The position numbers were made by a program, and so were the translations under genes. DNA of 64,000 nt from contig CAYLUN010000011.1 in assembly GCA_964386865.1 (NCBI GenBank), forward strand, positions 12,058 to 76,057, given 5' to 3'. Below are positions 13,535 to 64,000 of the stretch, one piece after another (position 1 is the first letter of the stretch; each line of letters opens with the position of its first letter). This DNA is from an uncultured Lentisphaeraceae bacterium (GTDB lineage Bacteria; Verrucomicrobiota; Kiritimatiellia; RFP12; UBA1067). A model generated the notes under the pieces. That model did no database searches and was not told the origin of the DNA. It saw only the letters and a program-made list of their open reading frames with translations.

Positions 13535-13898
13535 ATTTTGCAATCCTGTCGCAGGCCCTAAGCAGCAGCACACCCCGTCAACGCATACGTTACACCACGC
13601 GCGCGCGCGGCGTCCAGCGAAACAGCGATTCTCACCAGGGCCTAAATGCCAGAGACGGACTGAAGGCAGGCCTCCCCGCGTTTCATTCCGTGCTCGTAGT
13701 CCGGGCTTCGGCCCGCTTCTTCCGGAATCGGGCTGGCCAGAATGAGAATGGCGGCCCGCGAAGCCCTCGCGGCTCCAGCAGGTCGGCGCCACGAAACGCG
13801 GTGCGCCCGGGTGTTTCCTGCGTGTTTCCGTTGACGTTAGGCGTGCGGAGAGATAAACTATTATCACCTGACAAGATTCTATTGGAAAGGAACGCAAG

Positions 13899-24913: not shown

Positions 24914-24961
24914 GGGCGCGGCAGTCGGGGTCACGGTATGGGCGGTATGGGCGTTTCGGCC

Positions 24962-24987
24962 TTCTCACACCTCCGGAGGTGTGAGAA
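24962..24987. promoter_or_regulatory. Perfect 26-bp palindrome TTCTCACACCTCCGGAGGTGTGAGAA (copy 2), about 128 bp upstream of the 25115 start
   Basis: Identical to copy 1 at 19154-19179. It lies in the non-coding leader, which the track mis-annotates as an N-terminal extension of ORF 24938. Confidence 0.5.
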
Positions 24988-25114
24988 CGTGTTGGCGAGC
25001 GCCGGGCAGCGGCAGGATAGGCTCGTCACGCAGCCGGTTCAGGAGCGCCGGGCGAGGGCTGCGGGGTCAAGCCGCCTGAGCGGGCCGGCGGAGTGTGTTC
25101 GAAAGGGGGCTCTG

Positions 25115-30400: not shown

Positions 30401-30594
30401 GCGTGCGCTCCTTTGCCAAGCTACGATCACTTCCGCTTTAAACAGCATTACGTTCGCACACTCTCCGTTCCCGGTCAAGATGGATAAACGACCACAGGTT
30501 TGGTTTTGCGAACGAGCAGGGCAAACGGCTATACTATGAGGTTGACTATGGCGTGCCGCGTGCGGAGACGCGTGCCGCGAGGGCGGTGACACGG

Positions 30595-33500
30595 ATGGCA
30601 GATATTCAGACAGGCGGGTTGGCGGGTTCTTGTCCGGCGCGTTGGACGGCGTTTGCGGCCGCGCTGACCCTGGTTCAGTTGGCCTGTGCGGCCCAGGCGC
30701 TTGAGCAGGTGACGCGGCAGGCGGAGGACGCGTCGCGGATCGCCGCGCCGGTCGAGACCGCTCTGGCCGGTTATCGCGGCTCGGGCTACGTGAACGTTCC
30801 CGCCAGCGGCGGCTCGGCCACCTGGACGGATTTCGACGGCGGGCCCGGCGGCGGGGTGAACATCCAGATCCGTTACCAGCTGGCGGGTACCCTCACGCGC
30901 GAGGCGCCGCTGACGGTTAACGGCGTGACGCGCCGCGTGCGTTTCGCGCCGACCGGCTCGGGCGTGTGGGGCACGGTCACGGCGTTCGGGTGGCTGGCGG
31001 CCGGCGAGACGAACGCCGTGACGCTCTCCACAGACGGCGCGGACATCGGCGCGGTCGACGAAATCACGGTGTCGCAGCCCGCGCCGGTGCGCGTCCCGGC
31101 GCGCGTGTACTGGGGCGGCTACAAGAACATGTCGCAGCTCGTCGGCGCGGGCACGTCGCAGTGGACGTGGGTGCAGGCGCACCAGGACGGGCTGCTGCTG
31201 CACGGCGCGTACTGGGGCAACCCGGCGATGTTGCCCGCGCCCTCCAACGTGGCGCCGGCGCTGGCGGCGCTGCTCGCGCCCCGCAAGCCCCACTACATCT
31301 ACGAGGCCGGTTTTCCGGGCGAGTACCCGCGCATCGACACGGCTCTCGGCACGAGCAACGCCGACGCCGCCATCCAGGACATCGACCAGCTGAAGGCGTG
31401 GGGCTTCTCGCAGCCGGACGTCTCGACGGACTATCACATGTTCGCGTGGCAGGAGTCCATGCGCTACCACCCGGAGTGGGGCCACGACGACTTCTTCGCT
31501 GCCCTCTGCGGCAACTGGTCGACCTACACCGGCGTCGTCGTCAGCGCAGGCACCTACGGGTGGTACCGGCAGTGGACGGAAAAGCTGGCGCAGCGTTACG
31601 CCGGCATCCGCGTGACCGCCTGCGATTCGCCGGTCTACTTCAGCTGGAACGACCTGCGCGAGCTGGGCGACGGCAACAACGCGTACGAGGCGTGGGTCAA
31701 GCTCGAGCGGCGCGGCACGAACGTCACGGCGCTGTGGTCGGCGACCGGCAAGTCGTGGCTGACGCTCGGCGTGACCACCTCCTCGCTGCCTGCGGCCGCC
31801 TACGCCGGGCTGGCGGTGACCAGCCGCAACAACGCGCGCCTCGCCGCGGCCGCGTTCGGCTCGGCCCAGGTCTACAACTACTTCTTCGACGACGTCGGCC
31901 GGCCCGGCCGCGGCGGCTCGCTGTCCACGGGCTCGGGCACCTTCACGCTCACGTCCTACGGCGACAACTCCAACGGCACCGACGAGGACGCGCACTTCTT
32001 CGTCTACCGCGAGCAGGCGGGCGACGGCGCCTTCGTGGCCCGCGTCGCGTCGCTGACCAACAACGCCAGCGCCACGCGCGCCGAGACGTCCGCCGGCCTC
32101 GAGCTGCGCGAGTCGCTCGCCGCCAACGCCCGGGTGGTCTCGCTGTCGCTGCGCAACGACAACAAGGTGCAGTTCCAGACGCGCACCAGCGCGGGCGGCG
32201 CCCTCGCTACAGTCGCCAGCCCTGCCGCCTCCGAGCCGGCCTGGCTCAAGCTGGTGCGCAGCGGCAACAGCTTCTCCGCCTGGATCTCCACCAACGGCAC
32301 GAGCTACGCGCAGGTCGGCACGACTCAGACCGTCGCGCTGGCCAGCGCCACAAAGCTCGGGCTCTTCTGCGACAGCGGCGTCTATTGGGAGGACGCCGCC
32401 GCCCAGTTCTCCCACGTGGACTTCTTGGACGCCACGGCCCACTCGGCCTCGTGGAGCGGGCGGGACATCGGCGCGCCCGGCGTGGCCGGCTCGCACAGCG
32501 GCACCTCGACGATCACAGTCGAGGCCAGCGGCGCGGATATCGGCGGCGCGTCCGACCAGTTCCGCTTCGTCTACAAGCCGCTGACGGGCGACGGCACCGT
32601 GCTCGGGCAATGTTCCACCTTCGCCGACAAGGCGAGCCCGGCGACGGCGCTGGACGCGCTCGCGAAGATGGGCGTGATGCTGCGCGCCTCCACGAACGCG
32701 AACGCGCGGCACGCCGCCGCCGTCTTCACGCCGCAGCAGGGCATCCGCCACCTGAGCCGCGCCGCGGACGGCGCGCCGACGGCCACCGGCGGCGTCTGGG
32801 GCGTCGGCGAGGCGGCGATCGTGCCCAGCCTGACCGGCGCCCGCCGCGCGCTGGCGCACTACCTGACGGGCAACGATTTCTTCGCCGCGCTGCGCGACGC
32901 CTTCCCCAGCACCTACAAGACAAACGGCGTGGGCTTCACCACCGACTCGCCCTACCGCAGCTACATGTGCTGGGGCGGCAGCGAGACGCACGGCGACGCG
33001 CAGAAACACCGGCAGAAGATCCGGCTCTACGAAGCGTGGCTGCAGGCAAACGGGATGGAGCACCAGCTCATCGCCAACAGTAACGTCGGCGGCGCGACCG
33101 GCACGCAGGCCGAGCGCGACGCGTGGGACTCGGACTACGCCGACGAGTCGCTGCGCAGCATCGCGCTGCACCAGCTCGAGGGCGGCCGGCCCGACCGCGT
33201 GATCTTCGAGTCGTGGTACGACGGGCCCTACACGCTGGTGCCAGAGACGAAGTCCGGCTCGTTCGCCAACCTCGCCCTGCGCGGCCTCAAGTATCTGAAA
33301 GGCGAGGGGCAGACGCTGGATCTGACGGTGAAGGCCAATCCGGCCTCATTCTTCTTCGGCGGCGGCCTCCAGCAGAGCGTGCCTGCGGGCGAGCAGGCGC
33401 GGAGCTGGCGCGCCGCCACGACCAACGCCGCGCAGACCTTCACGGTCCGCCTCAGGAACGCCGGCGAGGTCGAGGCGCTGCCCGTGCTGCACGCGTACGC

Positions 33501-39278: not shown

Positions 39279-41561
39279 ATGCATAGGGCGTTCTGGGCGG
39301 CGGTCGGTGTCTGCGTGGCAGGAGCGGTTGCGGCGGAGCCGGTGGGCGACCCGGTCGCGTACGCGCTGCCGCTGATGGGCACGGACAGCAGCCACAAGCT
39401 GTCCGCGGGCAACGTCTACCCCGCGATCGCCCGGCCGTGGGGCATGAACGTCTGGACGCCGCAGACGGGCAAGATCGGCGACGGCTGGGCCTACTCCTAC
39501 GACGCCGACAAGATCGCGGGCATCAAGCAGACGCACCAGCCCAGCCCGTGGATCAACGACTACGGCCAGTTCGCCGTGCTGCCCGTGGCGGGCAAGCGCG
39601 TCTTCCATCAGGACGACCGGCCGAGCTGGTTCTCGCACAAGGCCGAGCAGGCCCTGCCGCACTACTACCGCGTCTACCTGGCGGACTACGACACCACGGT
39701 AGAGGTTACGCCGACCGAGCGCGCCGCGCTCTTCCGCGTGACCTATCCCGCGACCGACCAGGCCTACGTGGTCATCGACGCCTTCGACAAGGGCTCGTAC
39801 GTCAAAGTCATCCCCGAGCAGCGCAAGGTGGTCGGCTGGACCACGCGCAACAGCGGCGGCGTGCCAGCGAACTTCAAGAACTACTTCGTGCTGGTGTTCG
39901 ACCAGCCCTTTGTCTCGGCGCACGTCTGGAAGGACAAGGAGCTGCGGGAAGGCCAGCTCGAGATTCAGGACAACCACGTCGGCGCGCTGGTGCAGTTTAT
40001 GGCCGCCGCGCGCGGCGACCGCGTCCACTTCCGCGTCGCGTCGTCGTTCATCAGCCCCGAGCAGGCCGAGCTGAACCTGAAGGAGCTCGGCGGCGATTCG
40101 TTCGACGCGCTCTGCGAGAAGGGGCGGCAGGCGTGGAACCAGACCCTTGGCCGCGTCGCGGTCGAGGGCGGCACGCTCGACCAGACCCGCGTCTTCTATA
40201 CCTGCCTCTACCGCTCGCTGCTCTTTCCCCGGGCGTTCTACGAGATCGACGCGGCGGGCAAGCCCGTCCACTACAGCCCGCACACGGGCGAGGTGAATCC
40301 CGGCTACTATTTTACCGACAGCGGCTTTTGGGACACCTTCCGCTCGCTCTTCCCGCTGCTGAACTTCCTCTACCCCTCGATGAACGCCAAGATGACCGCC
40401 GGCCTGGAGGCCTGCTACCGCGAGAGCGGCTGGCTGCCGGAGTGGGCGAGTCCGGGCCACCGCGGCTGCATGGTCGGCAACAACTCCGCGTCGGTCGTGG
40501 CGGACGCGTGGCTGAGCGGCGCGCGCGGCGGGTACGACATGGCCGCGCTCTACGAGGCCGTCGTGCACGGCGCGGAGAACGCGCACCCGAGCATCCAGTC
40601 GGTCGGCCGCGCGGGCGCCAAGGAGTACCTCGAGCTCGGCTACGTGCCGCGCGACATCGGGATCAACGAGAGCGCCGCACGCACGCTGGAGTACGCCTAC
40701 GACGACTGGTGCGCGTGGCGGCTGGCGGTCGACCTCAAGCGGCCGCAGGCGGAGGTCGACCGCTTCGCCACGCGCTGCCAGAACTACCGCAACCTCTTCA
40801 ATCCGGCCGCCGGCCTGATGTGCGGGCGCAACAAGGACGGCTCGTTCGACAAGGACTTCAACCCCTTCAAGTGGGGCGGCGACTTCACCGAGGGCAACAG
40901 CTGGCACTACTCGTGGTCGGCCTTCCACGACGTGCAGGGGCTGATCGGCCTGATGGGCGGACGGCAGGCCTTCGCGGCCAAGCTGGACGAGGTCTTCACG
41001 CTGCCGCCGGTCTTCGACGAGAGCTACTACCGCGCGGTGATCCACGAGATCCGCGAAATGCAGATCATGAACTTCGGGCAGTACGCGCACGGCAACCAGC
41101 CGATCCAGCACATGATCTACCTCTACGCCTACGCGGGCGAGCCGTGGAAGACGCAGCGCTGGGTGCGCGAGGTGATGGACCGGCTCTACGCGCCCGCGCC
41201 GGACGGCTACTGCGGCGACGAGGACAACGGCCAGACCTCGGCGTGGTACGTCTGGTCCGCGCTCGGCTTCTATCCGGTCTGCCCCGGCAGCGGCGAGGTC
41301 GTGCTCGGCGCGCCGCTCTTCAAGAAGGCCACGGTGACTTTCGAGAACGGCCAGGTGCTCGTGATCCGCGCCCCGCAGAACAACGCCGCAAACCGCTACA
41401 TCGGCAAGATGGAGCTGAACGGCAAGACGTACACGAAGAATTTCCTCGTGATCGACGCGCTGAAGAAGGGTGCGGAGATCGACCTCGACATGGCCGACGT
41501 GCCCAACGCGACGCGCGGCGCGGCGGCCGGCGACGCGCCGTACTCGTTCTCGCGGAAATGA
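39279..41561 (+). CDS. Glycoside hydrolase family 92-like alpha-mannosidase
   Basis: Signal peptide present. GH92-like motifs include PLMGTD...GNVYPAIARPWGM and GDEDNGQTSAWYVWSALGFYPVCPG. 760 aa, RBS GGAGGGA. Confidence 0.75.
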   Translation: MHRAFWAAVGVCVAGAVAAEPVGDPVAYALPLMGTDSSHKLSAGNVYPAIARPWGMNVWTPQTGKIGDGWAYSYDADKIAGIKQTHQPSPWINDYGQFAVLPVAGKRVFHQDDRPSWFSHKAEQALPHYYRVYLADYDTTVEVTPTERAALFRVTYPATDQAYVVIDAFDKGSYVKVIPEQRKVVGWTTRNSGGVPANFKNYFVLVFDQPFVSAHVWKDKELREGQLEIQDNHVGALVQFMAAARGDRVHFRVASSFISPEQAELNLKELGGDSFDALCEKGRQAWNQTLGRVAVEGGTLDQTRVFYTCLYRSLLFPRAFYEIDAAGKPVHYSPHTGEVNPGYYFTDSGFWDTFRSLFPLLNFLYPSMNAKMTAGLEACYRESGWLPEWASPGHRGCMVGNNSASVVADAWLSGARGGYDMAALYEAVVHGAENAHPSIQSVGRAGAKEYLELGYVPRDIGINESAARTLEYAYDDWCAWRLAVDLKRPQAEVDRFATRCQNYRNLFNPAAGLMCGRNKDGSFDKDFNPFKWGGDFTEGNSWHYSWSAFHDVQGLIGLMGGRQAFAAKLDEVFTLPPVFDESYYRAVIHEIREMQIMNFGQYAHGNQPIQHMIYLYAYAGEPWKTQRWVREVMDRLYAPAPDGYCGDEDNGQTSAWYVWSALGFYPVCPGSGEVVLGAPLFKKATVTFENGQVLVIRAPQNNAANRYIGKMELNGKTYTKNFLVIDALKKGAEIDLDMADVPNATRGAAAGDAPYSFSRK

Positions 41562-41865
41562 GCGCACGCTCCACGGCTGAACAGGTGTTTGGGCAGGGAC
41601 GCCGCCCCGTCGGCGTCCGCCCTTCGGCTGGCTCGGGACTGGCGGATGGCAGGGGCTGCCTTCCCGACCACGCCATGCGCGATCACGGGTCTCATGCCGC
41701 GGCCGAAAAGTATCTAGACCCTGTGACAGGCACAATACACACGGGAGGGCCGGGTTCCACCCCGGCCGCGGACGGCGTGGAAGGCGTCCTTCCCTGTGTG
41801 TGTGGCGCCCGTTTAGTCCATTTACTTTTCGGCAGCGGTATTATATTAGGACAGGAGGTAATCGA

Positions 41866-43902
41866 ATGATGCGTTTGTTTGCGTTTTCTCTAACGGTTGC
41901 GCTCGCAGGTGCTCTCCCGGCGGCGTCTCGGGAGCGTCTGTCATATGCGGACTTGGTCGGGCGCATGACCGACCTCGAGCATTTAGCCGTGCTTCCGGAG
42001 CCGGGCGAGCGCGCCGCGATGTGGTCCAGCTGGGACCGCAGGGCGCGCTACGACGAGCAGGCTGCCCAGTACGTCGACTGGTCTGCGAACGGCGACGGAG
42101 ACGGTAAGATCCGCATGGAGGGCGAAGCGCAGGTGCTCGCCGAGATGGACGGCCCCGGCGTCATTTGGCGCATCTGGTCGGCCAAGCCCGAGCAGGGGCA
42201 GCTCAAGGTCATTCTCGACGGACAGGTCGCAATCGATATGCCCTTCGCGCACTACTTCGACGCCCAGCACGCGCCGTTCCTCTACCCGGCGCTCGGGTAC
42301 GAGTCGGCCCGCGGCAAGAATCTGTACGTTCCCATTCCGTATCAGAAGTCCTGCAAGGTTCTCGCCGAGAAGGGCTGGGGCAAGTACTACCAGATCACCT
42401 ACACGACCTATCCCAAAGACGCCGCGCTGCCGACATTCAACGTCGCGCTGTCGGAGGAGTCCGCTGCGGCGCTGAAGCGCGCGAACGAGTTTTTCGGCGC
42501 GCGTCTCGGAAACGACCCCGCCGGCGCCCGGGACGGCGAGAAGACCCTGCGCGCGAGCGTGAAGGTTAAGCCCGGAGCGGCCGTGACGGTCCTTGAACTC
42601 GGCGGACCGCGCGCAGTCACGGCGCTTCGCGTGAAAGCGTCCTTCGCCGGCCGCGAGGACGAGATGGCGGCCCTCCGGCAGATGGTTCTGCGCATCACGT
42701 GGGACGGGGCGGACACGCCCGCAGTCTGGTGCCCGCTCGGCGACTTCTTCGGGTCGGCGCCGGGCGTCAACCCGTACCTGTCGCTTCCGGCGGGGATGAC
42801 GCCGACGGGCGGGTACGCGCTCTGGTACATGCCCTTCGCCAAGCAGGCGCGGATCGAGCTGCTCAACGAGGGTGACGCGGAGCGCGAGGTCAGCTTCGCC
42901 ATCACCCACGCGCCGCTGGCGCGCCCCGTCGAAACCTACGGCCGCTTCCACGCCAAGTGGCACCGCGACGTGATGCCCGTGGCCCCCGCGCGCTGGCCCG
43001 ATTGGACGGTCGTGAAGACCGAAGGCCGCGGGCGGTTCTGCGGCATGATGGTGCATGTCTGGAGCCCGCGCGGCGGACAGTGCGAGCGCGTGAAAGAGGC
43101 CCACGGGCACTACTGGTGGGGCGAGGGCGACGAGAAGTTCTTCGTCGACGGCGAGAAATATCCGTCCACCTTCGGCACGGGCACGGAGGACTACTTCGGG
43201 TACGCCTGGGGCAACGGCACGCTTTTCGCCAAGCCCTACCACAGCCAGACCGTGTGCGAGGGTAACGCCGGGCACATTTCGCTGAACCGCTGGCAGATCG
43301 CGGACCAGGTGCCGTTCCAGACGTCGTTCGAAGGGTGCTTGGAGAAGTACTGGCCGAACGACTGGCCGGCCCTCTACGCGGCCGTGGCGTACTGGTATCT
43401 GTCTGCGGACGGCGAGGATCCGCACGGCGCGACGCCGGCGGCAGACCGCCACGGCTACTACTACCGCCCGCCGCAGTCTGCGGCCGGCTTCACCGTGCTC
43501 AAGAAGACCAAGGGCAACGTTCAGGGACAGGGGATGGGGCAGTACGGCGCTTCCACGTGGTCCAACGACGACCAGCTCTGGTGGACCGGCGCGGCGCCGG
43601 GCGACAAGCTGGATCTGGCTGTGAAAGTCGAGAAGGCTGGGCGGTACGCCGTCGGCGTGAACCTGACCCGGGCCGCCGACTACGCCGTCGTGCAGTTCCA
43701 CGTGGACGGCAAGGCGCTGGGCGAGCGGGCCGACCTCTTCAACAACGGCGTGATCCGCACGCCGCTCCTGCCGCTCGGCACGCTGGACCTTGCCGCCGGC
43801 GACCACGTGCTGACGGTCGAGATCGTCGGCGCGAACGACCAAGCGAAGAAGGCCTACATGTTCGGGATCGACGAGCTGTCGCTGAAGCCGTCCGAGCAGT
43901 AG
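41866..43902 (+). CDS. DUF2961 / GH172-like secreted glycoside hydrolase
   Basis: RBS AGGAGGT precedes the ATG at 41866, followed by a signal peptide. The N-terminal region (WDRRARYDEQAAQYVDWSANGDGDGKIRMEGEAQVLAEMDGPGVIWRIWSA) matches the DUF2961 consensus. Confidence 0.65.
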   Translation: MMRLFAFSLTVALAGALPAASRERLSYADLVGRMTDLEHLAVLPEPGERAAMWSSWDRRARYDEQAAQYVDWSANGDGDGKIRMEGEAQVLAEMDGPGVIWRIWSAKPEQGQLKVILDGQVAIDMPFAHYFDAQHAPFLYPALGYESARGKNLYVPIPYQKSCKVLAEKGWGKYYQITYTTYPKDAALPTFNVALSEESAAALKRANEFFGARLGNDPAGARDGEKTLRASVKVKPGAAVTVLELGGPRAVTALRVKASFAGREDEMAALRQMVLRITWDGADTPAVWCPLGDFFGSAPGVNPYLSLPAGMTPTGGYALWYMPFAKQARIELLNEGDAEREVSFAITHAPLARPVETYGRFHAKWHRDVMPVAPARWPDWTVVKTEGRGRFCGMMVHVWSPRGGQCERVKEAHGHYWWGEGDEKFFVDGEKYPSTFGTGTEDYFGYAWGNGTLFAKPYHSQTVCEGNAGHISLNRWQIADQVPFQTSFEGCLEKYWPNDWPALYAAVAYWYLSADGEDPHGATPAADRHGYYYRPPQSAAGFTVLKKTKGNVQGQGMGQYGASTWSNDDQLWWTGAAPGDKLDLAVKVEKAGRYAVGVNLTRAADYAVVQFHVDGKALGERADLFNNGVIRTPLLPLGTLDLAAGDHVLTVEIVGANDQAKKAYMFGIDELSLKPSEQ

Positions 43903-50035: not shown

Positions 50036-50182
50036 GCGCGTGCGCGGGCTGAAAGCTGAACGCAAGGGCGCTAGGATGCAAGGGTGCTAGGGGTGCGGTT
50101 TAGGCGGGATTCGACAGGGCATGATTCTTGACGGGGTACGGGCGATCTGATATTTTTTGACATGTTAAAAACGGGGGTCAAG

Positions 50183-53100
50183 ATGGCGCGACAGATCGGG
50201 TGGGGCGTGGCGGTTCTGCTGGGGGTTGTGGCTGCGTATGCGCAAGAGCGGCGCGAGACGGCGCTGGAAGGCGCCTGCGCGTCGGTTGCCTATACCGGCG
50301 GCGGCGAGGTCGACGCGCTCAAGCCGGGCGCGGTGCTCTTCACGGACAGGGCGTACACCCTCAAGGAGTGTCCCGCGTGGCTGGTCGGCAAGCCGTTCCT
50401 GCGCAGCAGCATCGAGTCGGGCAGCCTGCGCATAACGGCCGACGGCGTGCTCACCGTGCTCACGCCCGAGCCCGTGCACCCGCGCGCGGCCACGCAGGCC
50501 AAGTCGCTGGAGCGGCGCGGGTTCGCGTGGATCGCCAGCCCCGAGCGCTTCCAGCTCTTCGGGGCGCAGCCGTTCGACCTGACCCGCGCCTATCAGAGGC
50601 ACGTCAAGAAGGGCGAGCGCCTGCGGCTGGGCAAGTGGGCCGTGGTCGCTGGTTTCGCGCAGGCCGAGCCGCTCGCGCCGCCCGCACAGGCCTGGGGTGC
50701 GAACACCGGCGAGCGCCTCTACAACGGCATCGTGCTGCCCGAGGAGTGGCCGCCGTCAGACATCGACCCGCGCGACGCCGCGCCCATGGCCGTTCCGTAT
50801 TTGGCCTGCCCGCCCCCGGTCATCCCCATCGACGTCGGCCGCCAGCTCTTCGTGGACGACTTCCTGATCGCGACCAGCACGCTGGCGCGCGTCTTCCACC
50901 TGCCCAAGAAATACGCGGGCAACCCGGTTCTCAAGCCGGAGACCAAACTGGAGCTGAACGGAGAGAAGAACGACGCGGCCGTGCCCAAGAGCGGCGGCGT
51001 GTGGTGGGATCCGGCCGAGAAGCTCTTCAAGATGTGGTACGAGGCGGGGTGGATCCACACCATCTGCTACGCCACGAGCAAAGACGGGCTCACGTGGGAG
51101 CGGCCGACGCTGGACGTGGTGCCCGGCACGAACCAGGTGCTGCCTCCGGATCTTACGCCCGACTCCTGGACCGTCGTGCCCGACTGGGAGGCGGCTGACC
51201 CGCAGCAGCGCTACAAGATGTACATGCGCCCGCCGGGCGGCCAGATGCCAGGAATCAGTATGACGTCGCCAGACGGCGTCCACTGGACGAACCGCGTGAT
51301 GAGCGGCGACACGGGCGACCGCAGCACGATGTTCTATAATCCGTTCCGCAAGAAGTGGGTCTACAGCTTGCGCTCGGGCTTCCGCGGCCGCTCGCGCCAC
51401 TACTGGGAGTGCGACGACTTCCTCGCCGGAGCGACGTGGAGCCCGGACGGCCCCGTGGTGTGGGCGGCGGCAGACCGCGACGACCCGAAGGACTGGGTGA
51501 CGCGGCGCATGCCGCAGCTCTACAACCTCGACGCCGTGGCCTACGAGAGCCTTCTGCTCGGCTTCTACCAGATCCACCACGGCCCGGAGAACGACGTGTG
51601 CGAGAAGACCGGCATCCCGAAGATCACGGAGCTGAACTTCGCCTACAGCCGCGACGGGTTCCACTGGAACCGGCCCGACCGCCGCATCGCCATCACGTCC
51701 GAGCGGCGCGACGTGTGGGACCGCGGCTACGTGCAGTCCATCGGCAACCTCTGTTGCGTGCGCGGCGACACCCTGTGGTTCTACTACACGGGCTTTCAGG
51801 GTGACACCGCCGCGACCAACCGCAACTGGATGACGAACGGCATGTACCACCGCGGCGCGACGGGCGTCGCCTTCCTGCGGCGCGACGGCTTCGCCTCGCT
51901 GGAGGCCGGCGCCGAGGGCGGCGAGCTGACCACGCGCCCCGTGACGTTCGGCGGCAGCCGTGTCTTCGTGAACGCCGCCGCCGCTGGCGGCGAAGTGCGC
52001 GTCGAGATTCTGGACGAGGCCGGTCAGGCGATCGCCCCGTACACGCTCGCGAACTGCCGTCCGGTGGCGGCGGACAGCGCGCTCGCGCCGGTCGCGTGGG
52101 AAGGCGCCGAGGACGTGTCGGCGCTGCGCGGCCGCACGGTGCGCTTCCGCTTCGCGCTGCGCCAGGCCGCGCTCTACGCCTTCTGGGTCAGCCGCGACGC
52201 GACGGGTCGCAGCGACGGCTACGTGGCGGGCGGCGGGCCGGGCTTCACCGGTCCGCGCGACACCGTGGGGCGCGCGGCGCTGGAGGCCGAGACGAGCGCC
52301 TTCGGCGGCGCCGCGCAAAGCGTGTTGCCGGCGGGCTGGAGCGCGCAGGCGGCCGGCGACCGGGTGCTGGCGGGGCTGGTGGCGGCGACCGCGCCGCAGG
52401 TGAGGGGCGCGCACGACGCCGAAATGGCGCTGGTCGGTGACCGCGCCTACGTCGTGGCCGAGGTGAACGACCTCCGTCCGGGCGAGGGGGCGGGGTGGCC
52501 GGAGATCTACTCCGCACTGTCGGTCGTGAACCTCAAGACGCTGGCCGTCGAGACGGTCATCCCCTTCGCCCGGGGCGGGCAGGCCTTTGAGAACGAGACC
52601 CTGCCGACGGGAGCCTGCTTCGTGCCGCGCATCCTCCAGAAGGACGCGTCTACGCTGCGCTGCTACTTCGCCAGCGAGCAGCCGGGGAAGCGGCAGGCGC
52701 AGACGTGGTTCCTCGACTTCGACCTCGCGTCGCAGACCTTCGGGAAGCAGCTCCAGCGCGCCAAGCTCAAGACGGCGGCGGGCGTGTTCGACATGCAGCC
52801 GCAATACCTTCATGCTGACGCGGCTGCGCAGGGCTTCGCGCGCAAGCCGGAGGATTTCGGCCTCTACGTTTTCGATTCGTTCAAGGTTTTCGACGGCAAG
52901 ACCTACGTGGCGCTCAACAACTATCCAGGCGGGCAGAACGCGCTGGCGGCGGTGAACGACGCGAAGGACACCTTCGAGGTGCTGGGACATTATAACGGCT
53001 CGGCCGAAACGAAGCTGACGGAGTCGGCGGTGAACCGCCTGCCCGACGGCACGTGGCTGGCGGTGTGCCGCCAGGAGGGAGGCACGCGCAACTACGCGTT

Positions 53101-53437
53101 CACGCAAAGCAAGGACGGGCGGGTCTGGACGCCCGGCGAGACTCGCAACGTGATCCCCAACGGCACGTCGTCCAAGCCCACCTTCGACAGGATCGGCGGG
53201 CTCTACTGGCTCGGGTGGCAAGAGGCCGAGGGGACGGGCATGGTGAGCCGCTCGGTCTTCAATGTCGAGGTCTCGCGCGACGGAGCGAACTGGGAGCGCA
53301 AGTACCGGTTCGTTACAGACAAGTCGTTCCAGTATCCGACTTTCCGCGAGCACGGCGGGCGCGTCTATGTGTGCGTGACGCAGGGCGACAGCTCCCCGTG
53401 CCGCAAGGAGCGGATCATGTTCGGGCGCGTGGAGTAG
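50183..53437 (+). CDS. BNR/Asp-box repeat protein, putative exo-glycosidase (sialidase-like beta-propeller) with N-terminal accessory domain
   Basis: Signal peptide present. There are at least five Asp-box motifs of the form SxDxGxTW (SKDGLTWERP, SPDGVHWTN, SRDGFHWNRP, SKDGRVWTP, SRDGANWERK). RBS GGGGG precedes the ATG at 50183. Confidence 0.7.
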   Translation: MARQIGWGVAVLLGVVAAYAQERRETALEGACASVAYTGGGEVDALKPGAVLFTDRAYTLKECPAWLVGKPFLRSSIESGSLRITADGVLTVLTPEPVHPRAATQAKSLERRGFAWIASPERFQLFGAQPFDLTRAYQRHVKKGERLRLGKWAVVAGFAQAEPLAPPAQAWGANTGERLYNGIVLPEEWPPSDIDPRDAAPMAVPYLACPPPVIPIDVGRQLFVDDFLIATSTLARVFHLPKKYAGNPVLKPETKLELNGEKNDAAVPKSGGVWWDPAEKLFKMWYEAGWIHTICYATSKDGLTWERPTLDVVPGTNQVLPPDLTPDSWTVVPDWEAADPQQRYKMYMRPPGGQMPGISMTSPDGVHWTNRVMSGDTGDRSTMFYNPFRKKWVYSLRSGFRGRSRHYWECDDFLAGATWSPDGPVVWAAADRDDPKDWVTRRMPQLYNLDAVAYESLLLGFYQIHHGPENDVCEKTGIPKITELNFAYSRDGFHWNRPDRRIAITSERRDVWDRGYVQSIGNLCCVRGDTLWFYYTGFQGDTAATNRNWMTNGMYHRGATGVAFLRRDGFASLEAGAEGGELTTRPVTFGGSRVFVNAAAAGGEVRVEILDEAGQAIAPYTLANCRPVAADSALAPVAWEGAEDVSALRGRTVRFRFALRQAALYAFWVSRDATGRSDGYVAGGGPGFTGPRDTVGRAALEAETSAFGGAAQSVLPAGWSAQAAGDRVLAGLVAATAPQVRGAHDAEMALVGDRAYVVAEVNDLRPGEGAGWPEIYSALSVVNLKTLAVETVIPFARGGQAFENETLPTGACFVPRILQKDASTLRCYFASEQPGKRQAQTWFLDFDLASQTFGKQLQRAKLKTAAGVFDMQPQYLHADAAAQGFARKPEDFGLYVFDSFKVFDGKTYVALNNYPGGQNALAAVNDAKDTFEVLGHYNGSAETKLTESAVNRLPDGTWLAVCRQEGGTRNYAFTQSKDGRVWTPGETRNVIPNGTSSKPTFDRIGGLYWLGWQEAEGTGMVSRSVFNVEVSRDGANWERKYRFVTDKSFQYPTFREHGGRVYVCVTQGDSSPCRKERIMFGRVE

Positions 53438-60523: not shown

Positions 60524-61522
60524 ATGCGTGTGATGAACTGGACGGTCGTTGTTTGGGGTGCGGCGTTTGCGCTGGCGGCGGCGGGAGCGGAGCCCGCGAT
60601 GAAGTGGGCGGATGAGACGCGGCTCGGGCGGCCGTTCTCGAAAGACCCGTCGGTGATCCGCTTCAAAGACCGCTACCTGATGTATTTCTCGCTGCCGCCG
60701 TTCGACGCGAAGCTCGCGCCGACGAACGCGCCCAAGGGCTGGTCGATCGGCATTGCCGAAAGCAAAGACCTGCTGGCCTGGAGCAAGGTCACCGAGCTGC
60801 GCCCGGAGCAGCCGTGCGACGCGAAAGGCCTGTGCGCGCCCGGCGCGCTGGTGCTGGAGGGCCGCGTGCACATCTTCTACCAGACCTACGGCAACGGCCC
60901 CAAGGACGCGCTCTGCCACGCGGTGTCTGACGACGGCGTGACCTTCACGCGGCACCCGCAGAACCCGGTTTTCCGCCCGCACGGCGCGTGGACCTCGGGC
61001 CGAGCGATCGACGCCGAGGCCTTCCCGCTCAACGGCAAGCTGCTGCTCTACTTCGCGACGCGCGACCCCAACATGGTCACGCAGATGGTCGGCGTGGCGT
61101 CGGCCGACCTGACGTCGGACTTCGGCCCCGCGGCGTGGACGCAGCTGCGCGACGGGCCGGTGCTGCGGCCCGAGCTGCCGTGGGAGAAGAAGTGCATCGA
61201 GGCTCCGACCGTGCTCCGGCGCGGCGACACGCTCTTCATGTTCTACGCGGGCGGCTACAACAACGAGCCGCAGCAGGTGGGCGTGGCCTCCAGCGCGGAC
61301 GGCGTCACGTGGGCGCGCCTCTCGGCCGAGCCGCTGCTGCCGAACGGCAAGCCGGGGGAGTGGAACGCCTCCGAGTCGGGCCACCCCGGCATCTTCGGCG
61401 AAGCCGACGGCCAGACGTGGCTCTTCTTCCAGGGCAACGCCGACAAGGGCAAGACCTGGTTCCTCTCGCGCGTCGGCATCGAGTGGAAGGCAGGCCGTCC
61501 GGCGGTGAAGAGGGGTCGTTAG
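60524..61522 (+). CDS. Secreted 5-bladed beta-propeller glycoside hydrolase (GH43/GH130/GH32-clan-like)
   Basis: RBS GGGAGGTG precedes the ATG at 60524, followed by a signal peptide. The motifs SKDPSVIRFKDRYLMYFS and ESKDLLAWSKV are typical of this propeller clan. Confidence 0.6.
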   Translation: MRVMNWTVVVWGAAFALAAAGAEPAMKWADETRLGRPFSKDPSVIRFKDRYLMYFSLPPFDAKLAPTNAPKGWSIGIAESKDLLAWSKVTELRPEQPCDAKGLCAPGALVLEGRVHIFYQTYGNGPKDALCHAVSDDGVTFTRHPQNPVFRPHGAWTSGRAIDAEAFPLNGKLLLYFATRDPNMVTQMVGVASADLTSDFGPAAWTQLRDGPVLRPELPWEKKCIEAPTVLRRGDTLFMFYAGGYNNEPQQVGVASSADGVTWARLSAEPLLPNGKPGEWNASESGHPGIFGEADGQTWLFFQGNADKGKTWFLSRVGIEWKAGRPAVKRGR

Positions 61523-61619
61523 CCGGTGACAAATACATTTGACTAGTGCTAGGTTATTATAGAAACTAGAATGCAATAGTGGGTTTGTATTGTTTTGGGT
61601 TAGATAAGGAGTCGGAAAC

Positions 61620-63758
61620 ATGCCTCAGAGAACTGCCGTTGTCAATGGAATGACGCTCACGTTCGATGCCCGCCCGGATCGGCTCGACCTGCGGGATTTG
61701 CCGTATCGTCCGCCGGTCGAAAACCTGCCGCCCGCATATCCCGATGACGAGCTTGTGAAGGATTTGCTTCCCGGTTATCTGAAGGCGGGGCTGATCCTCG
61801 ATCAGGGAAAGGAGGGCGCCTGCACGGGTTTCGGCCTGTCGGCGGTCGTCAACTTCCTGCGCTGGACGACCGCGTTCGAGAACAAGCAGCCGATGAGTTC
61901 GGCGGATCTGGTGAGCCCCCGTATGCTCTACCACCTGGCCCGCTTCTACGACGAGTGGCCCGGCGAGGATTACGACGGGTCGAGCTGCCGGGGGGCGCTG
62001 AAGGGGTGGCAGCGGCACGGCGTCTGCCTGGAGAGGCTCTGGCCGTACAACAGAGGCCGCTTTGTGCGGCCTTCCGAAGGCTGGGAGGTAGATGCCGTCG
62101 CCCGCCCGCTCGGTGTGTATTACCGGATCCAGCGGGATTCTGTTGTGGACATGCAGTCGGCCATCCTTCAGGCGGGCGCGATCTACGTCTCGGCCGACGT
62201 TCACGCAGGGTGGACGATCGACGGGAGGGCGAGGGGGCTACCCACGCATGCGAAGCTGCCGGTGATCAAGCCCAGCACGAAGATACTGGGCGGGCACGCC
62301 TTCGCGATCATCGGCTATAACGATGTCGGCTTTGTCGTCCAGAATTCGTGGGGTGCCGACTGGGGCTGGTCGGGCTTCGCCGTGTTGCCCTATGAGGACT
62401 GGGTGGCCCACGGGACGGACGCGTGGGTTGCCGGGCTGGGGGCGCCGGTCACCCGCACGGTGCCGGTTGCGCAAGGGAGCAAGGTGCACAAGGCGCCGCA
62501 GTACTTCGTTCGACACGGGGGGCGCGTTGCGGCGGCCGGTCAGCTGCCGGGCTGGACCGGGTCGGCAGGCGATCCATTAGGACATCGCGCAGGCGTATGG
62601 GACGAGCAAGCCGCCTATTGGCATACCTTGGTGTCCGGCAATGACGGCTGCGTGCTCAATCGTCTGCCTCAGGCGGAGAATGAGAGAGACAACCTGAAGA
62701 TCGTTGCCTTGGAACAGCCGCAGGCGTGGTTCAAGGCGCGAGGGCAGGCGGAGCCGGCTCGGGTTGTGATCTATGCTCACGGGGGGCTGAATTCGGAGCA
62801 AGCGTCCGTCTCGCGGATACGGGTTCTCGGCCCCAACTTCGAGGCAAACGGCATCTATCCGATCTTTGTGACGTGGAAGAGCGGCTGGGCGGAAACGCTC
62901 GGCAATATGGTCGAGGATGCCGCGAAAGAGGTCTTTGGCGGGGCCTTGCCGCCGGCCAAAGGGTTGGGCGACGTCATCGCCGAGGCGACGGACCGCGCGC
63001 TGGAGGCCATCAGCCGCACCGTCCTTGTGCGCGGCATGTGGTCGGAGATGAAGGAGAACGTCTCCCGGTCCTCCGGCACGGGCCGGGGCGTCGACGGTCT
63101 GGCCGAGCAGCTGAAGCGGCTCTCCGTCGCCCTGGGCGGCAAGCTCGAGATTCATCTGGCCGGGCATTCGGCCGGTTCGTTTGTCTGCGGCCACCTGCTG
63201 AGCGAGTTCAAGGGTCGGAGGCTTGCGGCCTCCAGCTGCACGCTGTTTGCGCCGGCTTGCGATCTGGGCTTCGCGTTGGAGCACTATGCGGCCGCGATTC
63301 GCGCTGGACGCCTCGACCGGAGCCGCTTCCACATTCACGCCCTCGCCGACTCCTTGGAGCAGGGCGATACGGTTGGGCCTTATCGGAAATCGCTGCTCTA
63401 CCTCGTGAGCCGCGCGCTGGAGCGCTGGCACAAGACCCCCTTGCTCGGGCTGGCCACGGCGTTCGACCCCCGCTACGCGTCCGACGAGTTTTGGCACAAG
63501 GACGCCTTGGCGGATATCAAGGCCTGGCAGAAGTTCTTTTGGCAGGGCCAGACCCCGCCGAGCGGCTTTGCCAAGGCGGGGCAGGCTGCCGGGCTCCGGA
63601 CGCTGGCGGTTTGGAGTAAGCCGCAGATCGACACGGGGGCGGGGCCCGCCAAGAGCACGCATGGCTCGTTTGACAACAGCGTCGCCCATATCACGGGCGC
63701 GATCGCGTCCATTCGCGGCGGCCCCTTGACAAAGAAGGTCTCGCCTCTCAACTACTGA
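61620..63758 (+). CDS. Cytoplasmic two-domain protein: N-terminal papain-like C1 cysteine peptidase fused to C-terminal alpha/beta-hydrolase (GHSAG nucleophile elbow)
   Basis: C1 catalytic residues are present: QGKEGAC (Gln/Cys), GGHAFAIIGY (His), QNSWGADWGWSGF (Asn). The C-terminal half carries VVIYAHGGLN and HLAGHSAGS. No signal peptide. An AT-rich 80-bp leader with a TAAGGAG RBS precedes it. Confidence 0.75.
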   Translation: MPQRTAVVNGMTLTFDARPDRLDLRDLPYRPPVENLPPAYPDDELVKDLLPGYLKAGLILDQGKEGACTGFGLSAVVNFLRWTTAFENKQPMSSADLVSPRMLYHLARFYDEWPGEDYDGSSCRGALKGWQRHGVCLERLWPYNRGRFVRPSEGWEVDAVARPLGVYYRIQRDSVVDMQSAILQAGAIYVSADVHAGWTIDGRARGLPTHAKLPVIKPSTKILGGHAFAIIGYNDVGFVVQNSWGADWGWSGFAVLPYEDWVAHGTDAWVAGLGAPVTRTVPVAQGSKVHKAPQYFVRHGGRVAAAGQLPGWTGSAGDPLGHRAGVWDEQAAYWHTLVSGNDGCVLNRLPQAENERDNLKIVALEQPQAWFKARGQAEPARVVIYAHGGLNSEQASVSRIRVLGPNFEANGIYPIFVTWKSGWAETLGNMVEDAAKEVFGGALPPAKGLGDVIAEATDRALEAISRTVLVRGMWSEMKENVSRSSGTGRGVDGLAEQLKRLSVALGGKLEIHLAGHSAGSFVCGHLLSEFKGRRLAASSCTLFAPACDLGFALEHYAAAIRAGRLDRSRFHIHALADSLEQGDTVGPYRKSLLYLVSRALERWHKTPLLGLATAFDPRYASDEFWHKDALADIKAWQKFFWQGQTPPSGFAKAGQAAGLRTLAVWSKPQIDTGAGPAKSTHGSFDNSVAHITGAIASIRGGPLTKKVSPLNY

Positions 63759-63804
63759 GCCCCCCCCCCGCCCGCTGAAAGCAGAGGGCGATGAAAACGA
63801 GCGA

Positions 63805-63838
63805 GGCGTCGCGCCACAGGCGCCACGCCTCGCCTCTG
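63805..63838. terminator. Bidirectional hairpin between convergent genes (12-bp interrupted stem, 3-nt loop), preceded by a C10 homopolymer tract
   Basis: GAGGCGT-C-GCGCC-ACA-GGCGC-C-ACGCCTC. The poly-C tract lies at about 63769-63780. Confidence 0.4.
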
Positions 63839-63843
63839 CCACG

Positions 63844-64000
63844 ATAGCGGCGACTACTCGCCGTACACGGTCGTGATGGTCTCGTTATAGATGAACAGAA
63901 TGTTCTTCACGTTGTAGTCCACATGGTGGACTTTGTTGATTCCGCCGTTGCGCATGGCGGCGCCGATGGAGGCGTCTCCCGTGTTGAAGCAGATGATGCC
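63844..64000 (-). CDS. Partial CDS (C-terminal 52 codons, runs off window end); product unknown
   Basis: The open minus-strand frame ends with a TAG stop at 63844-63846. It translates ...GIICFNTGDASIGAAMRNGGINKVHHVDYNVKNILFIYNETITTVYGE. Confidence 0.35.

What the first reader, a model, noticed from the sequence alone, without database searches (positions are those of the whole stretch)
61540..63758. Cytoplasmic papain-like C1 peptidase fused to an alpha/beta-hydrolase, behind an AT-rich islet
The 712-aa protein has a complete C1A catalytic tetrad in its N-terminal half. The Gln and Cys are in DQGKEGAC, the His is in GGHAFAIIGY, and the Asn is in NSWGADWGW. The C-terminal half is a serine-hydrolase fold with a GHSAG nucleophile elbow and a VVIYAHGGLN oxyanion region. 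There is no signal peptide, although bacterial C1 peptidases are usually exported. The gene is preceded by an approximately 80-bp AT-rich stretch (about 35% GC in a 68% GC genome). It is followed by a C10 homopolymer tract and a bidirectional terminator, which suggests a horizontally acquired single-gene module. A protease-esterase/lipase fusion of this kind could be an effector, a toxin or a defence protein. I do not recognise it as a described system.
Basis: partly seen in the sequence, partly recalled or inferred. Interest (0 to 1): 0.6.

Follow-up and report, generated by a model that had tools for sequence, protein, structure and literature searches.

The report
Cytoplasmic papain-type protease fused to lipase-like hydrolase
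This is a real, intact gene for a signal-less enzyme that joins a papain-type cysteine protease to a lipase-like serine hydrolase; the family is widespread and unstudied, and relatives that add cell-wall-cutting domains or swap in a caspase suggest, but do not prove, that it breaks down the cell envelope.

Summary
ORF 61620-63758 (+) encodes 712 aa, with a xylellain-type papain (C1) domain at aa ~18-276 and an alpha/beta-hydrolase at aa ~329-712. Both catalytic sets are invariant in 49 homologues: Gln62/Cys68/His226/Asn242, and HGG387-389/Ser517/Asp583/His681. The start is firm and no homologue has a signal peptide.

It is not a one-off. At least 584 species genomes carry a relative, all labelled only "C1 family peptidase". 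The gene always stands alone: 44 independent contexts share no partner, immunity gene, defence island, secretion system or phage. Composition evidence for recent transfer here is weak.

The C-half is DUF900-like. The only characterised DUF900-bearing enzyme I found is a phospholipase A.

The most informative result is that the same hydrolase domain also occurs fused to a caspase in place of the papain domain. It also occurs with endolysin-type wall hydrolases (PG_binding_1+GH19, Amidase_2) added at the N-terminus.

My best reading, at about 0.4, is a self-contained protease-plus-lipase effector that degrades the cell envelope, with unknown trigger and target. A housekeeping hydrolase for substrates with both ester and amide bonds remains a serious rival. 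I rate it a new variant of a known kind, of moderate interest.

The parts
60524..61522 (+). Upstream neighbour: exported GH43/GH32-like glycoside hydrolase (332 aa). No evidence links it functionally to the target gene.
   Evidence: The gene call and Pfam hits come from the identical metagenome contig L091. The translation shows a signal-peptide-like N-terminus.
61523..61619 (+). AT-rich intergenic leader (37% GC), probably the promoter region. It is not conserved in relatives.
   Evidence: Searches show it is the lowest-GC intergenic region of the window. It has no sigma-70 match, no Rfam match and no stable fold (z +0.44). The closest homologue, L094, has a GC-rich upstream region instead.
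61606..61611 (+). Shine-Dalgarno AAGGAG, 8 nt before the ATG.
   Evidence: Read directly from the sequence. Most homologues have GGAG-type sites at the same distance.
61620..63758 (+). Complete ORF of 712 aa: C1 peptidase fused to an alpha/beta-hydrolase.
   Evidence: The AF2 model has pLDDT 82.4 and pTM 0.83.
61671..62447 (+). Papain-fold (C1A, xylellain-type) cysteine peptidase domain, aa ~18-276. Catalytic codons: Gln62 at 61803-05, Cys68 at 61821-23, His226 at 62295-97, Asn242 at 62343-45.
   Evidence: Pfam PF00112. PDB 3ois matches by sequence at E 8.6e-14 and by Foldseek at E 5e-14, TM 0.73. All four residues are invariant in 49 sequences. Cys68 sits at the N-end of helix 68-87 and His226 in strand 222-233, as in papain.
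62448..62603 (+). Interdomain linker, aa ~277-328, low confidence and poorly conserved.
   Evidence: pLDDT is below 50 at aa 280-287 and 300-316. The consensus is mostly 'x' in this stretch.
62604..63755 (+). Alpha/beta-hydrolase domain (DUF900/cutinase-like, probably lipolytic), aa ~329-712. Oxyanion His387-Gly-Gly at 62778-86, Ser517 at 63168-70, Asp583 at 63366-68, His681 at 63660-62. A helical insert at aa ~423-504 may act as a lid.
63760..63769 (+). C10 homopolymer, starting 1 nt after the stop codon (63756-63758). Its length varies between samples.
   Evidence: Two other metagenome assemblies have C9 here, although the gene and its leader are otherwise 100% identical.
63769..63790 (+). 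Small hairpin directly after the gene.
   Evidence: RNA fold.
63801..63833 (.). Strong GC-rich hairpin between the convergent genes. A U-run follows it only on the minus strand.
   Evidence: Inverted repeat I19: 15-nt arms, 93% complementary, 3-nt loop. The fold has z -4.0 on the + strand and -2.6 on the - strand.
63854..64000 (-). Convergent downstream gene, a TRL-domain protein of 107 aa. It runs off the window end.
   Evidence: Gene call and PF13146 on the identical contigs L091-L093.

Best explanation
Shown. The gene encodes an intact, signal-less protein of two domains. The first is a short xylellain-type papain-fold cysteine peptidase (Gln62/Cys68/His226/Asn242). The second is a DUF900/cutinase-like alpha/beta-hydrolase (oxyanion HGG387-389, Ser517, Asp583, His681). 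Both active sites have been kept intact across a large family that always occurs as a stand-alone gene.

Inferred. The C-half is a lipolytic esterase, most likely of the phospholipase A type. The two catalytic heads work as one unit on the cell envelope, with the esterase attacking membrane lipid or lipid anchors and the peptidase attacking envelope or anchoring proteins. On this reading the protein is a self-contained lytic effector. It would be made in the cytoplasm and kept harmless until some trigger acts, for example release of an occluding N-terminal or linker segment, or loss of membrane integrity. It could be used for self-lysis in conflict or stress, or against another cell.

Basis for the inference. 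The same hydrolase domain recurs with three different wall-cutting modules added: PG_binding_1+GH19 endolysin-like, Amidase_2, and a weak lysozyme-like one. It also recurs with a caspase replacing the papain domain. That matches the published caspase/alpha-beta-hydrolase effector pairing of bacterial conflict systems. The trigger, the substrates and the target cell are unknown.
For: - Both enzymes look active. All catalytic residues are 49/49 invariant and sit at the canonical secondary-structure positions in a confident model. A pTM of 0.83 for the whole chain suggests a fixed arrangement of the two domains.
- The N-half is closest to xylellain.
- Fusion evidence comes from an exhaustive search with the C-half, which gave 159 clusters at E<=1e-30. 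P0259 is hydrolase+caspase and P0265 is Amidase_2+hydrolase+caspase. P0194, P0193, P0239, P0216 and P0229 share one N-terminal module placed ahead of C1+hydrolase (P0229 is a 702-aa entry carrying only part of that module). In P0194 that module matches PG_binding_1 and phage GH19 endolysins such as 4ok7 at E 1.6e-9. P0154 adds a weak lysozyme-like domain.
- Kaur et al. 2020 (PMC7159879) report that caspase domains in vWA-MoxR conflict systems always come with a neighbouring alpha/beta-hydrolase.
- On rhizobial plasmids, distant relatives lie beside GDSL-lipase+caspase fusions, CHAP+PG_binding_1 and Amidase_2+PG_binding_1 proteins.
Against: - The window protein itself has no wall-hydrolase domain. 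Only about 7 of the 150 best clusters do.
- Neighbourhoods of the close family are ordinary housekeeping genes. There is no holin, immunity gene, sensor NTPase, secretion system or phage.
- The gene is syntenic within genera and matches host GC. That pattern fits a resident metabolic gene better than a fast-turning conflict gene.
- No activity, substrate or regulation has been tested.
- The geometry and accessibility of the two active sites could not be measured, because model coordinates are not exposed.
Confidence: 0.4

Rival explanations
1. Housekeeping or niche catabolic enzyme. A cytoplasmic bifunctional hydrolase that degrades or recycles molecules carrying both ester (or thioester) and amide bonds, such as lipopeptides, depsipeptides, acylated peptides or mislocalised lipoproteins. 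It would have no role in conflict.
For: The gene is embedded among housekeeping genes in 44 independent contexts, and no neighbour family recurs more than twice. It keeps a conserved syntenic position within Pseudoduganella and Undibacterium. Gene GC tracks host GC. There are no immunity or mobile-element genes. There is no signal peptide. Intracellular short C1A peptidases are common.
Against: This reading does not explain why the same hydrolase is repeatedly fused to endolysin-type wall hydrolases or to caspases. It does not explain why distant relatives sit among lipase-caspase and wall-hydrolase genes. No gene of a metabolic pathway is conserved next to it. The distribution across phyla is patchy.
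Confidence: 0.27
2. Dedicated single-gene anti-phage (abortive infection) system. The protease senses or is activated by a phage component, then unleashes the phospholipase to kill the infected cell.
For: It is a single gene with two degradative heads and no signal peptide. Protease-plus-hydrolase effector pairs are known in conflict systems. One homologue sits beside toxin-antitoxin modules. The AT-rich leader and low-end GC3 here are compatible with acquisition by transfer.
Against: No PADLOC model matches the protein. Of 145 neighbour ORFs from 44 contexts, only isolated methyltransferase- or cyclase-like hits appear, with no defence-island signature. Stable synteny within genera is atypical for defence genes.
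Confidence: 0.12
3. Exported toxin or effector delivered to other cells (bacterial or eukaryotic) by a signal-peptide-independent route such as a type VI secretion system (T6SS), a contractile injection system or vesicles.
For: It has no signal peptide but carries lytic-type domains. T6SS cargo typically includes lipases and wall amidases or glycosidases (established knowledge of Tle/Tae/Tge effectors). Relatives carry endolysin-like domains. Secreted bacterial C1 enzymes such as Legionella Lpg2622 are structural neighbours.
Against: No adjacent immunity gene, vgrG/PAAR/Hcp, adaptor or secretion gene appears in any of 44 contexts. The carriers include taxa of very different lifestyles.
Confidence: 0.1
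4. One or both domains are catalytically dead and the protein has a structural or regulatory role.
For: Some distant rhizobial paralogues appear to lack the Gln...Cys motif or the GxSxG motif. This rests on a regex check only.
Against: In the window protein and 48 relatives, every catalytic and oxyanion residue of both domains is invariant.
Confidence: 0.03

Closest known systems
Xylellain (Xylella fastidiosa cysteine protease, PDB 3OIS) and other short 'xylellain-type' bacterial C1A peptidases
   Same: It is the best sequence and structure match for aa 18-260 (E 8.6e-14; Foldseek E 5e-14, TM 0.73). It shares the catalytic tetrad. Neither has a classical I29 prodomain or a signal peptide.
   Different: Xylellain is a single-domain protein of about 290 aa. 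Here the domain is permanently fused to a hydrolase of roughly 385 aa. From memory of Leite et al. 2013 (not checked here), the N-terminal segment of xylellain blocks the active site. This protein has only about 17 residues ahead of the domain.
DUF900 (PF05990) alpha/beta hydrolases, including the archaeal bactericidal phospholipase 'cinquedea'
   Different: The window's own C-half does not reach the DUF900 model. Cinquedea is secreted, single-domain and archaeal. DUF900 proper is described as mainly rhizobial and possibly lipoprotein-anchored. No direct sequence comparison with cinquedea was possible.
Caspase / alpha-beta-hydrolase effector pairing in vWA-MoxR (VMAP) and GTPase-centred conflict systems (Kaur, Burroughs, Iyer, Aravind, eLife 2020, PMC7159879)
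   Same: A cysteine endopeptidase is obligatorily coupled to an alpha/beta-hydrolase. Relatives of this hydrolase are fused directly to caspase domains (P0259, P0265).
   Different: Here the protease has the papain fold, not the caspase fold. The two are fused rather than neighbouring. No vWA, MoxR, VMAP, STAND or GTPase component lies nearby. Whether their hydrolase belongs to the same family was not tested.
Phage lysis enzymes: GH19/amidase endolysins and the cutinase-like esterase LysB of mycobacteriophages (the LysB comparison is from general knowledge)
   Same: These are signal-less lytic enzymes. Relatives carry a bona fide endolysin-like PG_binding_1+GH19 module. The C-half has cutinase-like structural neighbours.
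   Different: The gene is not in phages. Only 1 full-length copy was found in 2.9 million viral contigs, and none in 50,697 phage genomes. There is no holin or spanin context. The window protein lacks a wall-hydrolase domain.
MARTX toxins carrying an alpha/beta-hydrolase (PLA1) effector domain and cysteine protease domains (from general knowledge)
   Same: One polypeptide combines a cysteine protease with an alpha/beta-hydrolase lipase module. The protease processes and releases effector domains, which offers a possible model for regulation here.
   Different: MARTX toxins are giant secreted toxins with repeat regions. Their protease belongs to family C80, not C1. No homology was shown here.

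Membership tests
Peptidase family C1 (papain family, subfamily C1A) | Match to the family profile above the curated threshold | tested here: met
   PF00112 scores 29.9 bits against a cut-off of 20.7, over aa 59-255.
Peptidase family C1 (papain family, subfamily C1A) | Catalytic Gln, Cys, His and Asn in papain order and spacing | tested here: met
   Gln62 lies six residues before Cys68, followed by His226 and then Asn242-Ser-Trp. All are 49/49 invariant.
Peptidase family C1 (papain family, subfamily C1A) | Papain fold | tested here: met
   The AF2 model matches 3ois at E 5e-14 (TM 0.73) and papain or cathepsins at about E 1e-7 to 1e-8.
Peptidase family C1 (papain family, subfamily C1A) | Classical zymogen layout (signal peptide plus I29-type prodomain) | tested here: not met
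   Only about 17 residues precede the domain, there is no I29 hit, and no hydrophobic N-terminus occurs in 118 homologues. The protein therefore belongs to the short, intracellular xylellain-type group.
Peptidase family C1 (papain family, subfamily C1A) | Peptidase activity | not testable with these tools
   This needs enzymology, for example E-64-sensitive cleavage of peptide substrates.
Alpha/beta-hydrolase fold serine hydrolases | Alpha/beta-hydrolase core fold | tested here: met
Alpha/beta-hydrolase fold serine hydrolases | Nucleophile elbow G-x-S-x-G after a strand, then the acid and the His in canonical order, plus an oxyanion loop | tested here: met
   GHSAG (Ser517) follows strand 509-516, Asp583 comes after strand 570-575, His681 after strand 676-678, and HGG387-389 after strand 380-387. 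All are invariant.
DUF900 (PF05990) | Match to the Pfam model above the gathering score | tested here: not met
   The window's C-half gives no DUF900 hit even at E<=10. Homologues P0053 (25.6 bits) and P0086 (24.8 bits) pass the 20.5 cut-off, and 10 of 36 C-halves match at E<=0.01. The domain is a divergent relative, not a certified member.
Known anti-phage defence systems (PADLOC-DB v2) | Match to any defence-protein model | tested here: not met
   0 families matched at E<=1.
Known anti-phage defence systems (PADLOC-DB v2) | Location in defence islands | tested here: not met
   Among 145 neighbour ORFs from 44 contexts there were only sporadic methyltransferase- or cyclase-like hits. Pfam shows housekeeping families.
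Caspase/alpha-beta-hydrolase pairs of NTP-dependent conflict systems (Kaur et al. 2020) | The protease partner belongs to the caspase superfamily | tested here: not met
   The window protein has a papain-fold domain. Only the relatives P0259 and P0265 carry Peptidase_C14.
Caspase/alpha-beta-hydrolase pairs of NTP-dependent conflict systems (Kaur et al. 2020) | Linkage to a vWA-MoxR-VMAP, STAND or GTPase core | tested here: not met
   No such genes occur in the window or in homologue contexts.
Type VI secretion system (T6SS) lipase effectors and polymorphic toxins | Adjacent immunity gene and/or vgrG, PAAR or adaptor genes | tested here: not met
   No neighbour is conserved outside genus-level synteny, and no secretion families appear among the neighbours.
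Phage lysis enzymes | Encoded in a phage or prophage lysis cassette | tested here: not met
   No full-length match in 50,697 phage genomes. One was found in 2.9 million viral contigs, about 5 kb from an integrase and without lysis genes.

The most novel reading that the evidence does not exclude
The gene represents a widespread, unrecognised class of one-protein 'envelope demolition' enzymes of Gram-negative bacteria. A cysteine endopeptidase, interchangeably papain-fold or caspase-fold, is hard-wired to a phospholipase-like alpha/beta-hydrolase, sometimes with an endolysin module added. The protein would be made in the cytoplasm without a holin or an immunity partner, and would carry out programmed self-lysis or membrane-vesicle release on an unknown trigger. 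That would make it a chromosomal analogue of a phage lysis cassette, and the free-standing ancestor or derivative of the caspase/alpha-beta-hydrolase effector pair of conflict systems.
Probability: 0.2. Interest if true: 0.75.

Novelty: new variant of a known kind. Interest (0 to 1): 0.5.

Why it matters
Both domains are familiar folds, and the family is already in databases under the uninformative name "C1 family peptidase". No paper I could find describes the fixed pairing of a cytoplasmic papain-type protease with a DUF900-like lipolytic hydrolase, although at least 584 species carry it.

Three observations together give a concrete hypothesis that can be tested by mutation. The same hydrolase swaps its protease partner for a caspase. 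It picks up three kinds of wall hydrolase. It resembles the one characterised DUF900-bearing phospholipase. The hypothesis is that a protease-lipase pair acts as an envelope-degrading module.

If correct, it would do three things. It would assign a function to DUF900-type hydrolases in bacteria. It would explain the obligatory caspase/alpha-beta-hydrolase pairing reported for bacterial conflict systems. It would add a holin-independent route to cell lysis. If instead the protein is a housekeeping hydrolase, it is still a new bifunctional enzyme, but of ordinary interest.

Tried and rejected
- Known defence or named family: PADLOC and NCBIfam gave nothing for the protein.
- Conserved partner gene: all-against-all comparison of flank ORFs from 88 loci, plus Pfam and PADLOC on 145 neighbours, found nothing shared beyond genus-level synteny. 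My greedy ORF calls in GC-rich flanks are rough, but five look-ups with proper gene calls agree.
- Regulatory RNA or promoter in the AT-rich leader: no Rfam hit, no sigma-70-like site, no stable fold and no conservation in the closest homologue.
- Insertion scars: no direct repeats flank the gene.
- Mis-called start or hidden signal peptide: rejected.
- Phage origin: rejected.
- Close solved structure for the C-half: none by sequence profile (best E 0.092) or by Foldseek (best E 1.8e-3).
- The AlphaFold-database fold library was not installed, so named structural relatives outside the PDB could not be sought.
- The alpha/beta hydrolase next to the S. fredii relative is unrelated to this C-half (hhalign probability 0.9%).
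- NCBIfam on neighbours of the caspase-fused relative gave nothing useful.
- Literature searches found no description of this fusion. Terms tried were DUF900, xylellain, Peptidase_C1+defense+phage, and caspase/SGNH/conflict. One search failed on syntax.
- Direct measurement of catalytic geometry, interdomain contacts and active-site occlusion was not possible, because model coordinates and PAE are not exposed.
Full report
1. THE OBSERVATION

The ORF at 61620-63758 (+) encodes 712 aa from an ATG.
- DQGKEGAC (Gln62, Cys68)
- GGHAFAIIGY (His226)
- NSWGADWGW (Asn242, Trp244)
- VVIYAHGGLN (His387-Gly-Gly)
- GHSAG (Ser517)

The start call is firm. The ATG is the first possible start of the ORF, and AAGGAG lies 8 nt upstream at 61606-61611. 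An independent gene caller produced the identical 712-aa product on seven metagenome contigs.

The flanking features mostly hold up:
- The 97-nt intergenic region 61523-61619 is 37% GC, the lowest in a 68.2% GC window.
- C10 at 63760-63769 is the only homopolymer of 8 or more bases.
- A strong hairpin lies at 63801-63833. Only the minus strand has a U-run after it, so it reads as the terminator of the convergent TRL gene rather than a clearly bidirectional one.

2. WHAT THE PROTEIN IS

N-terminal half. Pfam places aa 59-255 in Peptidase_C1 above its threshold. The nearest solved protein is xylellain, PDB 3ois, by sequence (E 8.6e-14) and by structure (Foldseek E 5e-14, TM 0.73).

Models. An AlphaFold2 model built on 49 homologues is confident, with pLDDT 82.4 and pTM 0.83. 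The C-half modelled alone reaches pLDDT 88.4.

Catalytic residues. In 49 aligned homologues of 48-73% identity, all of the following are invariant: Gln62, Cys68, His226, Asn242, His387-Gly-Gly, Ser517, Asp583 and His681. They also sit where the canonical folds put them. Cys68 is at the N-end of helix 68-87. Ser517 is between strand 509-516 and helix 519-531. His681 follows strand 676-678.

Both enzymes are therefore very probably active. I could not measure the geometry directly, because model coordinates are not exposed.

DUF900 link. The window's own C-half misses Pfam's DUF900 model. However, 10 of 36 family C-halves hit it, and two full-length homologues pass its threshold.

3. NO SIGNAL PEPTIDE, AND THAT IS NOT UNUSUAL

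None of 118 full-length homologues has a hydrophobic N-terminus. The conserved RPDxxDxRD motif starts at 0-based offset 15-18 in 108 of the 118 (Arg is residue 18 in the window protein).

The premise that bacterial C1 peptidases are usually exported is too strong. A 2023 survey describes widespread short xylellain-type prokaryotic C1A enzymes. It notes that signal peptides are absent from the intracellular ones, and it left multidomain forms unanalysed (PMC10380794).

4. DISTRIBUTION AND CONTEXT

Distribution. More than 7000 database proteins match. Carriers are mostly Pseudomonadota: Burkholderiales such as Undibacterium, Pseudoduganella and Roseateles, plus Steroidobacteraceae and some Pseudomonas. 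Nitrospirales, Binatia, Geobacter, Desulfobulbaceae, Magnetococcales, Vicinamibacterales and a Verrucomicrobia MAG also carry it.

Host of the window. The window carries giant PATR/PA14/LamG proteins, GH92 and GH43-like genes. I infer a PVC-type glycan degrader.

Neighbours. I clustered all flank ORFs from 88 loci and found 44 independent context groups among 83 usable loci. No neighbour family is shared beyond genus-level synteny. Pfam on 145 neighbour ORFs shows no family in more than two of them, and they are ordinary metabolic and regulatory genes. PADLOC shows no defence-island signal. Five look-ups with proper gene calls agree. In two Pseudoduganella species the gene sits at the same site, between a FemAB-like gene and pyrophosphatase.

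Phages. The fusion is essentially absent from phages. None of 50,697 phage genomes carries it, and only the C1 domain alone appears in four of them. One full-length copy was found in 2.9 million viral contigs, about 5 kb from an integrase.

5. HORIZONTAL ACQUISITION

At family level, the patchy spread across phyla argues for transfer. In this genome the evidence is weak:
- GC3 is 0.82, fifth lowest of 32 genes whose range is 0.77-0.955.
- No flanking repeats are present.
- The AT-rich leader is not conserved. The 73%-identical homologue has a GC-rich leader.
- The leader has no Rfam match, no sigma-70-like site and no stable fold.
- Across 83 loci, gene GC tracks host GC, with a mean difference of +0.015.

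6. CLUES TO FUNCTION

(b) Domain fusions in relatives. I ran an exhaustive phmmer search of 1.84 billion cluster representatives with the C-half. It found 159 clusters at E<=1e-30, 956 at <=1e-10 and 1740 at <=1e-3. Of the 145 newly returned proteins:
- 86 carry C1+hydrolase.
- 57 are short entries (150-558 aa) with the hydrolase near their N-end, probably mostly gene fragments.
- 2 carry a caspase: P0259 is hydrolase+caspase (C14), and P0265 is Amidase_2+hydrolase+caspase.

Among the 86 C1+hydrolase proteins, several carry an extra N-terminal module:
- P0194, P0193, P0239, P0216 and P0229 share one N-terminal module ahead of C1+hydrolase (P0229 is a 702-aa entry carrying only part of it).
- In P0194 that module matches PG_binding_1 and phage GH19 endolysins, with 4ok7 at E 1.6e-9.
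- P0154 has a weak lysozyme-like N-terminus.

None of these has a signal peptide. P0194 is again a lone gene among housekeeping genes.

(c) A published pairing. Kaur et al. [quoted passage not shown]

(d) Rhizobial neighbourhoods. On rhizobial megaplasmids, distant relatives (27-37% identity) lie beside several relevant genes:
- proteins of about 636 aa that are GDSL-lipase+caspase fusions
- CHAP+PG_binding_1 proteins
- Amidase_2+PG_binding_1 proteins
- a trypsin-like protease

7. MOST LIKELY MECHANISM

Shown: an intact two-headed hydrolase, made in the cytoplasm and encoded as a stand-alone gene.

Inferred: the hydrolase is lipolytic, of the phospholipase A type. The protease and the esterase form one functional module acting on the cell envelope, on membrane lipid or lipid anchors together with envelope proteins. 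This is why evolution repeatedly adds wall hydrolases to the module and can exchange the protease fold.

Because such an enzyme would be dangerous in the cytoplasm, I expect autoinhibition or a need for access to its substrate. The short N-terminal segment, the low-confidence linker (aa 277-328) and the helical insert (aa ~423-504) are candidate regulatory elements. This is speculation.

I put about 0.4 on this reading. The main rival, at about 0.27, is a housekeeping hydrolase for substrates with both ester and amide bonds. It fits the quiet, syntenic, compositionally native contexts better, but it does not explain the fusions. Dedicated anti-phage defence (0.12) and an exported toxin (0.10) lack any support from context.

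8. COMPARISON WITH KNOWN SYSTEMS AND NOVELTY

- The N-half is a member of peptidase family C1A, of the short xylellain type. Profile, tetrad and fold were all tested and met. The classical prodomain and signal peptide are absent.
- The C-half is an alpha/beta-hydrolase (fold and triad met). It is DUF900-like but not a certified member.
- The protein is not a member of any PADLOC system, of the caspase/alpha-beta-hydrolase conflict systems (wrong protease fold, no NTPase core), of T6SS effector loci, or of phage lysis cassettes.
- It may nevertheless work like the protease-hydrolase effector pairs, or like a lysis enzyme.
- I found no paper describing this architecture.

I rate it a new variant of a known kind, with interest 0.5.

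Noticed in passing
L096:7801-9714 (S. meliloti pSymA) and L095:78-1985 (R. leguminosarum pRle248d): Proteins annotated 'caspase family' that lie next to distant C1-hydrolase relatives are themselves GDSL/SGNH-lipase + caspase fusions of about 636 aa. This is a second, non-homologous lipase + cysteine-protease architecture in the same neighbourhood. CHAP+PG_binding_1, Amidase_2+PG_binding_1, TIGR02594 (CHAP) and trypsin-like genes lie close by.
   Followed up: partly
P0194, P0193, P0239, P0216, P0229, P0154, P0265, P0259: Relatives carry alternative architectures around the same hydrolase domain. Some add a PG_binding_1+GH19 endolysin-like module or a weak lysozyme-like domain ahead of C1+hydrolase. 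Others are Amidase_2+hydrolase+caspase or hydrolase+caspase. None has a signal peptide.
   Followed up: partly
L095:5680-7707, L099:5686-7725, L096:5824-7773: Some rhizobial paralogues seem to have lost one active site. L095 and L099 show no Gln...Cys motif, and L096 shows no GxSxG. This rests on a simple pattern check only.
   Followed up: no
window 63760-63769; L092 and L093 at the same place: The poly-C tract just after the stop codon is C10 in the window and in one metagenome assembly, but C9 in two others. The 2139-nt gene and the 97-nt leader are otherwise 100% identical. This is either real length variation or a homopolymer sequencing error, and it has no coding consequence.
   Followed up: partly
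window 4214-13918 (-), 24938-28753 (+), 30553-36111 (+): Three giant surface-type proteins of 3234, 1271 and 1852 aa carry various combinations of PATR, PA14, GLEYA, Laminin_G_3, Big_9, cadherin-like and DUF6055 domains. With GH92 (39279-41561), DUF2961 (41800-43902) and a GH43-like gene, they suggest a glycan-degrading bacterium of the PVC type.
   Followed up: no
window 152-3022 (+): A 956-aa protein with a hydrazine-synthase alpha-subunit middle domain (HZS_alpha, E 2e-23). The rest of the protein has no Pfam match.
   Followed up: no
window 50162-53437 (+): A 1091-aa ORF with strong coding composition (GC3 0.92) has no Pfam match at E<=1e-5.
   Followed up: no
L104:7758-10151 (IMG/VR contig 3300046458_000134): This is the only full-length C1-hydrolase fusion found in 2.9 million viral contigs. 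It lies about 5 kb downstream of a tyrosine integrase, separated by PHROG families of unknown function. It could be cargo of an integrative element or simply host flank.
   Followed up: partly
L001:10254-13079 (Acidoferrales MAG): In this one homologue context the gene is followed directly by a small toxin-antitoxin cluster: PhdYeFM antitoxin + PIN toxin, DUF4926, and a second PhdYeFM. Other contexts do not show this.
   Followed up: no
window ORF aa 123, 136, 540, 547: Four non-catalytic cysteines are invariant or nearly so: Cys123 and Cys136 in the peptidase, and Cys540 and Cys547 (SCTLFAPAC) in the hydrolase. The classical papain disulfide partners are missing, which fits a cytoplasmic protein. 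The role of these cysteines (redox switch, metal site) is unknown.
   Followed up: no
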